Notes: generated by a model from the sequence alone, not told the origin. Shown: positions 58,888-60,837, counted from the first letter of the stretch. The stretch: 64,000 nt of DNA from a virus (IMGVR_UViG_3300033416_000003:3668-67667); one strand, 5' to 3'. A program made the numbers and translations.

Positions 58888-59089
58888 ATCGCATCATCCT
58901 GCGTATCTCAGATGTTCGACGCGAACAATCCTCTCTAAAGATACAACCAATAGATGACTTAGCCATCATCCGAATGAGACTCAAGCACCAGTCTTCATCA
59001 CTTGGGCACCCCCAACTCTCTACGACTCTCTTAGCGCGCTGAAACGCCCTCCTGCGCTGCTGCCTACGGTACGCTCTGGTACGGGTCAA
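58871..59089 (-). CDS. basic hypothetical protein
   Basis: MTRTRAYRRQQRRRA. Confidence 0.55.
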   Translation of the reverse strand: MTRTRAYRRQQRRRAFQRAKRVVESWGCPSDEDWCLSLIRMMAKSSIGCIFREDCSRRTSEIRRMMRCEEDE

Positions 59090-59589
59090 GACCGGTCCTT
59101 CAGCGCTTTCCAGATCACACCAGCCGCTTCAGTGTAAAACGGAATCTTCGCTAGCTGGATCTCGGCATCGGCTCTAAGCAGGATGGGGGCAAGTAATGGA
59201 TTGTACTTCGCGTCTACTGATCCGAACTCTCGATCACACTCGCTATCTGGGATGGAACAAACATCGCCATTTTTTCTAGTGTAAAATCTTTCCCACACTA
59301 CATTGTACTCCTCTTGTCGCTGGTTGTAGATTGGACCTAAATCCACTTCATACCGTTCCCAAATCGAATTAATTGCCGCAGCAAGTCTGCCATTTATCTC
59401 TGACACCTCAGGCCATAAATCATTGTAAGACGCAAACCAAAGCAGGTCAAGACCCGCCTCCGCAGCCCTGAGAAGCGATGACTTGGTTACCCGTACGCTC
59501 TTCCCAAACGTTGCCCGGAACAGCTCAATCTGCGGCTCACACGCGTCGTTGGCGGTCAACCACTTAACACTTACGGTGCGCTTAGTCAT
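59086..59589 (-). CDS. hypothetical phage protein
   Basis: WLTANDACEPQIELFRATFG..., ggagg RBS. Confidence 0.65.
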   Translation of the reverse strand: MTKRTVSVKWLTANDACEPQIELFRATFGKSVRVTKSSLLRAAEAGLDLLWFASYNDLWPEVSEINGRLAAAINSIWERYEVDLGPIYNQRQEEYNVVWERFYTRKNGDVCSIPDSECDREFGSVDAKYNPLLAPILLRADAEIQLAKIPFYTEAAGVIWKALKDRS

Positions 59590-59617
59590 GGGTCCTCCAT
59601 GGGGGATGAATCAAGGT

Positions 59618-59704
59618 AGGCTGGGTGGGGACTCGAACCCCATCGGCACGGATCTTCCGTAGCGTGAGTTGCGACCCCACTACACCGAGCCCCATGCCCC
59701 AGCC
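59618..59704 (-). tRNA. atypical 87-nt tRNA-like RNA (long variable arm, CGC in the anticodon loop, no encoded CCA)
   Basis: Perfect acceptor stem GGCTGGG/CCCAGCC; T arm TGGGG-TTCGAGT-CCCCA; anticodon arm GTGGG-GTCGCAA-CTCAC; variable arm ACGGA-AGA-TCCGT. D arm weak and no U8. Own promoter just upstream. Confidence 0.6.
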
Positions 59705-59729
59705 GCTTGAGATCATGCCCACACCTACT

Positions 59730-59758
59730 AGGATAGGGCTTGGAGATGAGGGTGTCAA
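59730..59758 (-). promoter_or_regulatory. sigma70-like early promoter (copy 3)
   Basis: TTGACA, 17 bp spacer, TATCCT; 30 bp identical to copy 2 (59712-59741 = 60619-60648). Confidence 0.8.
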
Positions 59759-59796
59759 GGGGGAGGAGGCGGAAGTTGGTGCTCAACATATGGTAA

Positions 59797-60597
59797 CTAA
59801 CTTAATGCCAAGCGCAACTTTCTATAAAACTCCTCGGGATCGATTGAAGACAATCCTGACATCGATCCGTCATTAAGCTCAATAACAATCCACTTACCTT
59901 TCTCAGTCTTTGCAATGTCAACAACAAAGAATGGCGTCTTACCTAACCCATTCAACCGCTGTGCAACTTTCTTGGCAAGTCTATTGGCGCGATCCGGAGG
60001 ATCACTGTAAGCTGGTTTGTGCTCTGGATGATCCGACCAATAATAACCACCACAAAGAACCTGTCCTCTATAACAGAAAAAACGCCACTCGTTCGTGATG
60101 GGCAATCCGTTAATCCCAACTCCGAATTGCTCAAGAGGTACATATTCCCGTACAACAATCCCTTGATCCTTAATCAAACAGTCATCCAGTAAACTGCTGG
60201 CCACACCTGGTATATCCCCGACGGTAGGACAAAACATCCGCCGATTCCATTCATGTTTACGAGAATTAGTCACTCCCTTTACTACATAAGACCCATCCGT
60301 AAGATTTGCCCAATTATTCCAAGTGCGGGGAGTTAAGTCTTTAATTACTGGGTACCACTGCCAAATATCAGCTACAAAACGGTGCTGCGCACATGAATTA
60401 ATCAGGCAACCCCCCAGATACCGAGTAACGTCTCTTTCTAGTTCTTCTGGAAAAGGCAACATAGAATAACGAGGAATGACAAGATGTTGTACCGGTATTG
60501 CCATTCTATCGGATTCAACTACAAAATAATGCCGTGCTGCATTAAGCTCTTCTTGCTGAGTCCAATCACCGTAACGGAAATAAACCGCAACATTCAT
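59797..60597 (-). CDS. ATP-grasp domain protein (R2K / DUF4343-like)
   Basis: YVVKGVTNSRK, VVREYVPL, EWRFFCYRGQVL, FVVDIAKTEKGKWIVIELNDGSMSGL. Confidence 0.82.
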   Translation of the reverse strand: MNVAVYFRYGDWTQQEELNAARHYFVVESDRMAIPVQHLVIPRYSMLPFPEELERDVTRYLGGCLINSCAQHRFVADIWQWYPVIKDLTPRTWNNWANLTDGSYVVKGVTNSRKHEWNRRMFCPTVGDIPGVASSLLDDCLIKDQGIVVREYVPLEQFGVGINGLPITNEWRFFCYRGQVLCGGYYWSDHPEHKPAYSDPPDRANRLAKKVAQRLNGLGKTPFFVVDIAKTEKGKWIVIELNDGSMSGLSSIDPEEFYRKLRLALS

Positions 60598-60636
60598 ACT
60601 ATGCTCCTGGTCGTTGGAATCATGCCCACACCTACT

Positions 60637-60665
60637 AGGATAGGGCTTGAAGATGGGTGTGTCAA
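60637..60665 (-). promoter_or_regulatory. sigma70-like early promoter (copy 2)
   Basis: TTGACA (60665-60660), 17 bp spacer, TATCCT (60642-60637). Confidence 0.8.
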
Positions 60666-60696
60666 GGGGGGTGGAGAGTGTAATTTGAGGCGTAAG

Positions 60697-60748
60697 AAAA
60701 AAGTAAGGCCCGCTCCCTATTGGTTAGTGGCCTGATGGGAGCGGGCCT
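60697..60748 (-). terminator. intrinsic terminator
   Basis: 12-bp stem aggcccgctccc/gggagcgggcct followed by ACTTTTTT on the minus strand. Confidence 0.75.
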
Positions 60749-60802
60749 GTCCGGCCCCTTGATCTACCACGTGGAGCAGGACCCCCGGGTCGCTCTTGCA
60801 CA
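60697..60802 (-). ncRNA. candidate ~105-nt small RNA
   Basis: Bounded by a consensus promoter and an intrinsic terminator; no RBS-led ORF inside. Confidence 0.45.
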
Positions 60803-60808
60803 CACAAT

Positions 60809-60837
60809 AGGATAATGCTTGAAGGTGGAGGTGTCAA
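60809..60837 (-). promoter_or_regulatory. sigma70-like early promoter (copy 1)
   Basis: TTGACA (60837-60832), 17 bp spacer, TATCCT (60814-60809); shares cttcaagc with copy 2. Confidence 0.8.

What the first reader, a model, noticed from the sequence alone, without database searches (positions are those of the whole stretch)
59618..59704. Non-canonical tRNA-like RNA: class II body, CGC (Ala) loop, U73, weak D arm
Seen: perfect acceptor and T arms and a 5-bp variable stem. The anticodon loop G-U-CGC-AA would read GCG (Ala), yet there is no G3:U70 pair (C3:G70), no U8, and the D stem is only G-U rich. An alternative fold is possible: TCGGT pairs with GCCGA and the anticodon stem extends. Known: bacterial tRNA-Ala is class I with G3:U70, and long variable arms are recognised by SerRS/LeuRS. 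Inference: it may be a mis-decoding tRNA (Ser or Leu at Ala codons), a nuclease decoy, or a tRNA mimic rather than an ordinary tRNA.
Basis: partly seen in the sequence, partly recalled or inferred. Interest (0 to 1): 0.72.

Follow-up and report, generated by a model that had tools for sequence, protein, structure and literature searches.

The report
Phage tRNA-shaped RNA, not a decoder
An uncultured wetland phage carries, just behind an early promoter, an 87-base RNA that keeps only the amino-acid-end half of a tRNA, so it is more likely a tRNA mimic cut out by the host's tRNA-trimming enzymes than a working tRNA.

Summary
On the minus strand (59704 to 59618) lies an 87-nt element with a perfect 7-bp acceptor helix stacked on a perfect 5-bp T stem with a canonical T loop. 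Markov shuffles give about 0.003 such all-Watson-Crick top halves per genome, and 955 kb of related phage DNA held none.

It is not a normal tRNA. ARAGORN finds no tRNA in the 67.7-kb contig. The best Rfam match is tRNA-Sec at 21.9 bits (cut-off 47). With the top half enforced, the body folds into one long arm ending in a CGCA tetraloop.

The element starts about 19 nt after a TTGACA-N17-TATCCT promoter, 92 nt after an R2K_3 ATP-grasp gene and 29 nt before an orphan ORF. In 74 distinct phage R2K_3 loci, 12 carry a tmRNA or tRNA gene within 400 nt, all co-oriented, so the element occupies a recurrent tRNA/tmRNA slot. A related SU10-like phage has two mini tRNA-shaped units behind a similar promoter.

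My best reading, at about 0.45, is a non-decoding tRNA top-half mimic, excised by host tRNA-end enzymes. I found no homologues, covariation or expression data. The same scan had already noted this window's promoter/ATP-grasp/tRNA-like module, and tRNA-shaped RNAs in a tmRNA/tRNA slot of another phage.

The parts
59730..59758 (-). Promoter P3: TTGACA (59758-59753), 17-nt spacer, TATCCT (59735-59730). Predicted start near 59724-59722.
   Evidence: scores it 10 of 12 consensus positions. One search shows a 37-nt block that recurs with 3 mismatches at 60631-60667 (P2), with 0 expected by chance. A third copy of the two hexamers lies at 60837-60809.
59705..59723 (-). 19-nt leader. Its first 13 nt match the leader of P2. 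It pairs with the trailer through UCAAG/CUUGA, AUGA/UCAU and GGG/CCC.
   Evidence: Duplex energy is -14.1 kcal/mol, reached by 2% of shuffled trailers and 4.6% of genome windows. Pair probabilities are 0.9-1.0 for the inner 9 pairs.
59698..59704 (-). Acceptor 5' strand GGCUGGG (RNA nt 1-7).
   Evidence: pair probability 0.73-1.0.
59646..59697 (-). Body (nt 8-59). Best fold is a single long arm: GCAUGG (nt 8-13) pairs with CCGUGC (nt 54-59), followed by internal loops and a hairpin.
   Evidence: constrained fold -43.8 kcal/mol against an unconstrained MFE of -44.6.
59659..59683 (-). Hairpin H1 (nt 22-46): 10 bp, one bulged A, tetraloop CGCA.
   Evidence: probability 0.88-0.92. The alternative 7-nt loop register has 0.07-0.09.
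59626..59642 (-). T arm UGGGG-UUCGAGU-CCCCA (nt 63-79), carrying G53, U54, U55, C56, R57, A58 and C61.
   Evidence: It competes with the nt 12-20 / 69-77 helix.
59618..59625 (-). Acceptor 3' strand CCCAGCC (nt 80-86) plus discriminator U (nt 87). No CCA is encoded; the next bases are ACC.
59590..59617 (-). Trailer. It holds the bases that pair with the leader, then the Shine-Dalgarno GGAGG (59598-59594). There is no U-tract terminator.
59086..59589 (-). Downstream 167-aa orphan ORF, first gene of the operon led by the element.
   Evidence: One search lists the ORF. Pfam and PHROGs give no family. It has no homologue among 5.8 billion proteins. The Atlas returns only phage hypothetical proteins.
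59797..60597 (-). Upstream R2K_3 ATP-grasp gene, ending 92 nt before the element and driven by P2.
   Evidence: PF14243, 87.6 bits, E = 1.4e-24; it carries all 34 columns that are invariant across the 30 aligned sequences.

Best explanation
The element is a tRNA-derived RNA that does not decode. It is a 'top-half' mimic: an intact acceptor/T-arm minihelix joined to one long irregular hairpin that replaces the D, anticodon and variable arms.

**Proposed mechanism**
1. Host RNA polymerase transcribes it early from P3, and by read-through from P2, as the 5' leader of the orphan-gene operon.
2. Host tRNA-end enzymes recognise the 12-bp coaxial minihelix. RNase P would cut 5' of G1 (59704). A 3' nuclease and the CCA-adding enzyme would finish the other end.
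3. This releases a stable RNA of about 87-90 nt and gives the downstream mRNA a new 5' end.
4. The released RNA would act on host factors that read the tRNA acceptor end or elbow, as a decoy or sponge, or it would act together with the neighbouring R2K_3 ligase.

**Status of each part**
- Shown: the anatomy, the failure of tRNA tests, the promoter context, and the recurrent tmRNA/tRNA slot next to R2K_3 genes.
- Inferred: transcription, processing and any trans-acting role.
For: - **Top half is not chance.** The top half is perfect (12 of 12 Watson-Crick pairs, canonical T loop). About 0.003 such patterns are expected per genome, and none occurred in 955 kb of related phage DNA.
- **Body is not a tRNA.** The body is not recognisable as tRNA, and the interior is unrelated to 70 real tRNAs that share the acceptor. 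Even decay would not spare all 31 top-half positions.
- **Fold.** With the top half enforced, a three-way junction with one long arm lies only 0.8 kcal/mol above the MFE.
- **Promoter.** A consensus-like sigma-70 promoter sits 19 nt upstream. It is a near copy of the promoter of the adjacent gene, and there is no terminator.
- **A second case in the clade.** A relative with 42% terminase identity (L078) carries two mini tRNA-shaped units behind a TTGACA-17-TATAGT promoter. One has an 8-bp acceptor and a perfect T arm (z = -4.5), and its flanks also pair.
- **Recurrent slot.** Of 74 distinct R2K_3 loci in IMG/VR, 8 have a tmRNA (6) or tRNA (2) starting 14-390 nt downstream and 4 have a tRNA within 400 nt upstream. 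All 49 RNA genes lie on the R2K_3 strand. Our element starts 92 nt downstream.
Against: - No homologue of the element exists in IMG/VR, GTDB genomes or JGI metagenomes, so no covariation test is possible.
- The element is absent from most relatives.
- Nearest-neighbour energies favour a 9-bp helix (nt 12-20 with 69-77) that destroys the T arm, whose probability is 0.36.
- Leader-trailer pairing extends the acceptor helix. From general knowledge, this tends to hinder bacterial RNase P.
- P3 may exist only to drive the downstream ORFs.
- The R2K_3 synteny could reflect shared ancestry of large phages rather than a functional link. The three nearest R2K_3 relatives with DNA in hand lack an adjacent RNA gene.
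Confidence: 0.45

Rival explanations
1. It is a decaying remnant of a tRNA or tmRNA gene that once sat in the slot downstream of the R2K_3 gene. The remnant would have lost its body through an internal deletion or rearrangement. It would have no present function beyond being part of a 5' UTR.
For: - The element sits where other phages keep a tmRNA or tRNA.
- It is a singleton with no homologues.
- All tRNA scores are below threshold.
- nt 10-20 repeat nt 62-72 (AUGGGGCUCGG against AUGGGGUUCGA), which suggests rearrangement (and direct reading of the sequence).
- The T arm is thermodynamically contested.
Against: - All 31 top-half positions are intact while the body cannot be aligned to any tRNA. 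That points to selection, or to a very recent event.
- A second phage of the clade (L078) shows the same kind of top-half-only unit.
- The tmRNA hallmarks (G3:U70, the UUCGAC...GGAC signature, a tag ORF) are absent.
Confidence: 0.25
2. It is a cis-acting structured 5' UTR that serves as an mRNA stabiliser, an RNase III-type processing site or a translational operator. In this reading the rod-like fold matters: leader-trailer helix, acceptor helix and the nt 12-20 / 69-77 helix. The tRNA likeness would be ancestral or incidental.
For: - The MFE of the whole leader is a near-continuous helix of about 28 bp with small internal loops. It begins 1-3 nt from the predicted 5' end and stops just before the Shine-Dalgarno sequence.
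- The start codon lies in a small hairpin.
- There is no terminator, so the element stays on the mRNA unless it is cut.
Against: - Nothing in a UTR role requires a canonical T loop abutting a 7-bp helix, and chance expectation for that is 0.003.
- Leader-trailer pairing is only modestly above background (p about 0.02-0.05).
- The other two promoters of the same type carry no comparable leader structure.
Confidence: 0.15
3. It is a working but structurally odd decoding tRNA. The candidates are the reader's CGC (Ala codon GCG) charged by another synthetase, CUC (Glu) as relaxed ARAGORN calls it, or a Cys-like tRNA with U73 and GCA in the loop.
For: - ARAGORN at 90% of its threshold calls tRNA-Glu(CUC), and GAG is the phage's commonest Glu codon at 76%.
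- One loop register has U33 and A37.
- One metagenomic tRNA-Cys shares the same acceptor and U73 (L028).
- Phages are known to carry non-standard tRNAs (PMC10264068).
Against: - The cloverleaf is 12-26 kcal/mol above the MFE, outside the 0-5.7 range of real tRNAs.
- U8 and A14 are missing, and the D stem has at most 3 weak pairs.
- Each candidate anticodon needs a different register, and all are disfavoured (probability 0.09 or less).
- Rfam gives less than 22 bits, against 55-74 bits for typical phage tRNAs.
- There is no G3:U70 for Ala.
- Mis-decoding would hit 414 GCG codons in the phage's own genes.
Confidence: 0.05

Closest known systems
YrlA / bacterial Y RNAs (Rfam RF02553; Chen et al. 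2014, PMC4201824)
   Same: - Both are non-coding RNAs with a tRNA-like module, including a T arm and an acceptor-like stem.
- In both, the 5' and 3' flanks pair into a stem.
- The M. smegmatis YrlA, which has a 7-bp acceptor, is cut by RNase P and receives CCA.
- YrlA-type RNAs are also found in phages.
   Different: - The contig has no Ro60/Rsr (TROVE) gene.
- Rfam gives no YrlA match at E up to 10.
- The order of the arms is not permuted, and there is no D arm.
tmRNA tRNA-like domain (Rfam RF00023)
   Same: - Both have an acceptor and a T arm without an anticodon arm.
- In both, a long helix leaves the junction where the anticodon arm would be.
- Genuine phage tmRNAs occupy the same genomic slot, directly 3' of R2K_3 genes.
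   Different: - The 3:70 pair is C:G, not G:U, and the discriminator is U, not A.
- The element is 87 nt against about 350 nt, with no tag reading frame and no pseudoknots.
- It lacks the conserved GGUUUCGAC...GGAC signature seen in most of the six phage tmRNAs compared.
- The phage encodes no SmpB.
Phage T4 species 1 and 2 RNAs (rnaC, rnaD) and other tRNA-shaped phage RNAs (recalled; also named in earlier scan note e1-5350245)
   Same: They are stable phage RNAs that keep a tRNA frame but are not known to decode.
   Different: - The T4 RNAs lie inside a tRNA gene cluster and are longer.
- I made no sequence or structure comparison here.
mascRNA / MEN-beta tRNA-like elements (Rfam RF01684)
   Same: - A tRNA-like element embedded in a longer transcript and excised by RNase P.
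- The top half is conserved and the anticodon region is degenerate.
- It gave a weak Rfam match of 20.2 bits through the acceptor and T arm.
   Different: - These are vertebrate nuclear RNAs.
- The score is far below the cut-off of 42.5, so this is an analogy only.
tRNA-Sec and allo-tRNAs (Rfam RF01852; allo-tRNAs recalled from Mukai et al. 2017)
   Same: - Both have a long extra arm.
- tRNA-Sec is the best Rfam match, at 21.9 bits.
   Different: - The geometry is 7/5, not 8/5, 9/4, 8/4 or 9/3.
- There is no 6-bp D stem with standard spacing and no stable 7-nt anticodon loop.
- The score is below the cut-off of 47.

Membership tests
Canonical tRNA (RF00005 / ARAGORN) | 7-bp acceptor stem and a 5-bp T stem with loop U54-U55-C56-R57-A58 | tested here: met
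   12 of 12 Watson-Crick pairs, loop UUCGAGU.
Canonical tRNA (RF00005 / ARAGORN) | D arm with U8, A14 and G18-G19, and a 3-4 bp stem | tested here: not met
   Position 8 is G and position 14 is G. Only A-U, U-G and G-U pairs are possible, and their probability is 0 in the constrained ensemble.
Canonical tRNA (RF00005 / ARAGORN) | 5-bp anticodon stem with a 7-nt loop (U33, purine 37) | tested here: not met
   That register has probability 0.07-0.09. A 10-bp hairpin with a tetraloop has 0.88-0.92.
Canonical tRNA (RF00005 / ARAGORN) | Detection score above threshold | tested here: not met
   ARAGORN finds 0 genes at its default threshold and at -ps. Nothing reaches an Rfam gathering score. The best clan member scores 21.9 bits.
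Canonical tRNA (RF00005 / ARAGORN) | Cloverleaf close to the thermodynamic optimum | tested here: not met
   The gap to the MFE is 11.8-13.9 kcal/mol, against 0-5.7 for 70 real tRNAs.
tRNA-Ala | G3:U70 wobble pair | tested here: not met
   The pair is C3:G70.
Class II tRNA (Ser/Leu/Tyr) | Long variable stem-loop placed directly after the anticodon stem | tested here: not met
   A 5-bp stem can be drawn, but with 3 and 5 unpaired flanking bases. Its probability is 0.12-0.40 unconstrained and 0 with the top half enforced.
tRNA-Sec / allo-tRNA | 8/5, 9/4, 8/4 or 9/3 acceptor/T geometry; Rfam score of 47 bits or more | tested here: not met
   The perfect helices give 7/5 geometry. An 8/4 variant needs a C-C mismatch and leaves no anticodon arm. 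The score is 21.9 bits.
tmRNA | G3:U70, a tag ORF with resume codon, pseudoknots, and the TLD signature | tested here: not met
   The 3:70 pair is C:G. Only about 36 nt lie inside the closing helix. Neither ARAGORN nor Rfam calls a tmRNA.
YrlA / Y RNA | An adjacent Ro60/Rsr gene and a match to the YrlA model | tested here: not met
   No TROVE domain in the contig. No YrlA match at E up to 10.
RNase P substrate (functional class) | Cleavage 5' of nt 1 by RNase P; CCA addition | not testable with these tools
   Only the structural prerequisite was shown: a 7-bp acceptor stacked on a T arm.
attP / tRNA-derived integration site | An integrase gene, and identity to the 3' part of a host tRNA | tested here: not met
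   No PF00589 match in the contig. No exact match of the T arm plus acceptor in 185,579 species genomes.

The most novel reading that the evidence does not exclude
The tRNA-shaped RNA, like the tmRNAs and tRNAs that sit beside R2K_3 genes in other phages, is the working partner of the R2K_3 ATP-grasp ligase. Two versions are possible. The ligase could act on the RNA's acceptor end, for example by loading an amino acid or peptide onto it. Alternatively, the RNA could guide the ligase to tRNA-binding translation factors such as EF-Tu, much as the R2K relative Cdc123 acts on eIF2-gamma. Either would be an undescribed RNA-linked ATP-grasp system that phages use to rewire host translation.
Probability: 0.1. 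Interest if true: 0.85.

Novelty: new variant of a known kind. Interest (0 to 1): 0.5.

Why it matters
Phage tRNAs are currently being re-read as counter-defence tools (PMC10264068). An early, promoter-driven RNA that keeps only the acceptor/T-arm half of a tRNA would extend that idea. It points to mimicry of the end of the tRNA that is read by RNase P, the CCA-adding enzyme, EF-Tu and acceptor-end-modifying toxins. It would not involve the anticodon.

The side result may matter more. Co-oriented tmRNA or tRNA genes lie within 400 nt of the gene in 12 of 74 distinct phage R2K_3 ATP-grasp loci. The two comparative papers I read (PMC4431377, PMC7824862) do not mention this link. It gives a testable clue to the unknown substrate of that enzyme family, namely that it is related to the translation apparatus.

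Tried and rejected
**Searches for homologues of the element**
- Exact 25-mer of the hairpin and exact 23-mer of T arm plus acceptor in IMG/VR: 0 hits.
- The same 23-mer in 185,579 species genomes: 0 hits.
- A 24-mer spanning the promoter's -10 hexamer and the leader in IMG/VR: 0 hits.
- blastn of 59086-60700 against GenBank phages: no match.
- Gapped acceptor + T-loop pattern in JGI metagenomes: 70 hits, all ordinary tRNAs (50 Met-type CAU, 15 Phe, 3 Asn, 1 Cys, 1 Leu), with interiors unrelated to the element.

**Searches through neighbouring proteins**
- The 167-aa ORF has no relatives.
- A single-sequence terminase search found nothing in IMG/VR.
- A terminase profile gave 80 distant loci with no tRNA-like top half.

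**Expression**
- No RNA holder was listed. Only the probable source wetland run holds the DNA.
- Laying Logan contigs gave almost no cover, so nothing can be said either way.

**Ideas considered and dropped**
- attP or integration site: no integrase.
- Y RNA: no Rsr gene.
- Phage-encoded CCA enzyme, RtcB or SmpB: none found.
- Pairing between the P1 small RNA and the element: no better than 35% of genome windows.
- A 67-aa ORF (59586-59789, minus strand) overlapping the element: I rejected it as a gene because it has no Shine-Dalgarno sequence and contains promoter P3.
- An 8/4 'allo-tRNA-like' 74-nt fold starting at nt 14: it has a mismatch in the acceptor and no anticodon arm.
- The downstream 167-aa protein gave no functional clue.

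Full report
**What is there.** The window is the last 64 kb of a 67.7-kb IMG/VR virus contig, which CheckV estimates as 76% complete.
- Terminase and portal genes identify a tailed phage.
- Its nearest relatives carry SU10-type portal and adaptor genes, so it is an SU10-like podovirus.
- The only sequencing run holding it is a wetland metagenome.
- Almost all genes lie on the minus strand.

The finding lies on that strand, from 59704 down to 59618. It reads as follows:
- GGCUGGG (nt 1-7);
- a 55-nt body (nt 8-62);
- UGGGG-UUCGAGU-CCCCA (nt 63-79);
- CCCAGCC (nt 80-86);
- U (nt 87).

The acceptor helix (7 bp) and T stem (5 bp) are all Watson-Crick and abut each other as in a tRNA. The T loop carries every conserved tRNA base.

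**Is it more than chance?** Yes.
- I wrote a scanner for a 7-bp acceptor, a 5-bp T stem directly stacked on it and a T[TG]C[AG]ANN loop, all Watson-Crick.
- It gave 0.003 hits per 67.7 kb in 300 Markov shuffles.
- It gave one hit in the contig, which is this element.
- It gave none in 955 kb of 80 related phage loci.
- The top half is therefore tRNA-derived or selected to look like tRNA.

**Is it a tRNA?** No test supports that.
- ARAGORN finds no tRNA or tmRNA in the whole contig. Only at 90% of its threshold does it offer 'tRNA-Glu(CUC)', with a mismatched stem and no U33.
- No Rfam family reaches its gathering score. In a local search the best matches are tRNA-Sec at 21.9 bits (cut-off 47) and mascRNA at 20.2 bits (cut-off 42.5). 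Both rest on the acceptor and T arm. Typical phage tRNAs scored 55-74 bits in the same kind of search.
- Position 8 is G, position 14 is G, and the pair 3:70 is C:G.
- I calibrated energies on 70 real metagenomic tRNAs with the identical acceptor stem. Their cloverleaves lie 0-5.7 kcal/mol above their MFE, median 1.8.
- The proposed 7-nt loop GUCGCAA has ensemble probability 0.09. A 10-bp hairpin capped by CGCA has 0.88.
- GCG is 27% of the phage's Ala codons, 414 codons in 54 long ORFs. Reading GCG as Ser or Leu would damage the phage's own proteins.

**What it most likely folds into.**
- With acceptor and T arm enforced, the best structure (-43.8 kcal/mol) is only 0.8 above the free MFE (-44.6).
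- It is a three-way junction. Nt 8-13 (GCAUGG) pair with nt 54-59 (CCGUGC). After two small internal loops the 10-bp hairpin follows.
- The D, anticodon and variable arms are thus replaced by one long arm, and three bases (CGA) link it to the T arm.
- The free MFE instead pairs nt 12-20 (GGGGCUCGG) with nt 69-77, the T loop plus the 3' T stem. This is possible because nt 10-20 nearly repeat nt 62-72. The T arm then has probability 0.36.
- Which fold wins in the cell cannot be decided by calculation.

**Transcription context.**
- Three promoters of one type (TTGACA, 17 nt, TATCCT) point leftward at 60837, 60665 and 59758.
- The last two share a 37-nt block with 3 mismatches, with 0 expected by chance.
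- P1 drives a terminator-bounded unit of about 105 nt. P2 drives an R2K_3 ATP-grasp gene (PF14243, 87.6 bits). P3 starts about 19 nt before the element.
- There is no terminator after the ATP-grasp gene or after the element. The element is therefore both the 5' leader of P3 transcripts and an intercistronic spacer in P2 read-through transcripts.
- It ends 29 nt before the start codon of a 167-aa orphan ORF.
- The 19-nt leader pairs with the trailer through UCAAG/CUUGA, AUGA/UCAU and GGG/CCC. This extends the acceptor helix almost to the predicted 5' end.
- The leader-trailer duplex energy is reached by 2-5% of controls, so it is suggestive rather than proven.

**Relatives.**
- The element itself has no homologue in any collection I could search.
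- The metagenomic tRNAs that share its acceptor are ordinary Met-type, Phe, Asn, Cys and Leu tRNAs with unrelated interiors. The element is therefore not a recently decayed copy of any of them.
- Among terminase relatives, one (L078, 42% identity) holds a unit of about 190 nt behind a TTGACA-17-TATAGT promoter (11 of 12 consensus positions).
- That unit contains two miniature tRNA-shaped modules. The second is 60 nt, with an 8-bp acceptor, a perfect CACGG-UUCGAUC-CCGUG T arm and two small hairpins (z = -4.5). Its flanks also pair.
- Neither ARAGORN nor Rfam calls it.
- The other relatives lack such elements.
- The trait is therefore sporadic, but it has appeared at least twice in this phage group in the same top-half-only form.

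**The R2K_3 slot.**
- I collected 80 IMG/VR loci encoding homologues of the upstream ATP-grasp gene, 74 of them distinct at 95% DNA identity.
- 16 carry tRNA or tmRNA genes within 2 kb.
- In 8 the nearest RNA gene starts 14-390 nt downstream: six tmRNAs and two tRNAs. Six tmRNAs next to R2K_3 genes (including L101, whose R2K_3 gene is 95% identical to that of L100, and L105, whose tmRNA lies 701 nt downstream) were confirmed by Rfam at 88-127 bits; those of L104 and L137 rest on ARAGORN alone.
- In 4 a tRNA ends within 400 nt upstream.
- All 49 RNA genes lie on the ATP-grasp strand.
- Our element starts 92 nt downstream of the gene, so it sits in that slot.
- In another locus (L004) the R2K_3 gene overlaps the start of a Thg1-family tRNA 5'-end enzyme gene. 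A NUDIX gene lies upstream and a GNAT gene downstream.
- The three closest R2K_3 homologues with DNA in hand have no adjacent RNA gene, so the link is frequent but not obligatory.
- The two comparative papers on this family predict protein or translation-factor modification and do not mention tmRNA. A text search for the combination found nothing relevant.

**Interpretation.**
- The pattern is an intact minihelix on a non-tRNA body, with an early promoter, in a slot that elsewhere holds tmRNA or tRNA, plus a second top-half-only case in the clade.
- It fits best a non-decoding tRNA mimic recognised by enzymes that read the acceptor/T-arm half of tRNA.
- Excision would also cut the early transcript between the ATP-grasp gene and the orphan operon.
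- What the free RNA would do is inference only. It could be a decoy for acceptor-end-directed host factors or toxins, or a partner of the R2K_3 ligase.
- I put this reading at about 0.45. The rivals are a dead remnant of a tRNA or tmRNA gene (0.25), a purely cis-acting structured leader (0.15) and an odd but working decoder (0.05).

**Limits.**
- There are no homologues, hence no covariation test.
- There are no expression data.
- The host is unknown.
- The folds rest on nearest-neighbour energies, which ignore tertiary contacts.
- The synteny count is not corrected for shared ancestry.

Noticed in passing
IMG/VR loci L082-L161 (for example L100:2852-3205, L101:1990-2343, L118:2950-3300, L138:2901-3255, L147:3051-3426): Phage R2K_3 ATP-grasp genes are often followed at once by a tmRNA gene, or sit inside tRNA arrays. 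Of 74 distinct loci, 12 have such a gene within 400 nt. All 49 RNA genes lie on the same strand as the ATP-grasp gene. The two R2K papers I read do not mention this.
   Followed up: partly
L004:1855-4541: An operon-like run of NUDIX, R2K_3 ATP-grasp, Thg1-family (tRNA-His guanylyltransferase-like) and GNAT genes. The R2K_3 stop codon overlaps the Thg1 start codon. This links R2K_3 to enzymes that work on RNA 5' ends.
   Followed up: partly
L078:7050-7266 (minus strand): A related SU10-like phage has a strong sigma-70-type promoter followed by two miniature tRNA-shaped modules. One is about 45 nt with T-like loop UGCAAGU. The other is 60 nt with an 8-bp acceptor and a perfect T arm. Both lie antisense to the flanking genes, and neither ARAGORN nor Rfam calls them.
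   Followed up: partly
L105:3841-3944 and L091:793-933: L105 has an over-long (104-nt) tRNA-shaped gene next to a tmRNA/tRNA cluster. It scores 40 bits as a tRNA, has G3:U70 and carries a long internal insertion. L091 has a 141-nt pair of acceptor and T-arm helices with a large insert, which ARAGORN does not call.
   Followed up: no
window 60697-60837 (minus strand): Promoter P1 drives a unit of about 105 nt that ends in a 12-bp hairpin plus a U tract and has no ORF. It is a candidate small RNA. It shows no special complementarity to the tRNA-like element.
   Followed up: partly
window 59685-59695 and 59633-59643 (minus strand; RNA nt 10-20 and 62-72): An internal near-repeat: AUGGGGCUCGG against AUGGGGUUCGA. 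It creates the helix that competes with the T arm. It could be a trace of rearrangement, or a built-in conformational switch.
   Followed up: partly
L117:591-664 and L120:591-664: ARAGORN calls a 74-nt 'tRNA-SeC(tca)' upstream of R2K_3 genes in two near-identical large-phage contigs. Its size suggests an ordinary-length UGA-reading suppressor tRNA rather than a selenocysteine tRNA.
   Followed up: no
L079:17462-17526: An Rfam int-alpA RNA match above its cut-off (40.7 bits against 35.8) lies in the structural-gene region of an SU10-like relative.
   Followed up: no
Logan contig from SRR10143164 (no DNA served): An independent assembly of the same phage breaks about 152 nt upstream of the 167-aa ORF, at the duplicated promoter block. 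This fits the P2/P3 repeat confusing assemblers.
   Followed up: no
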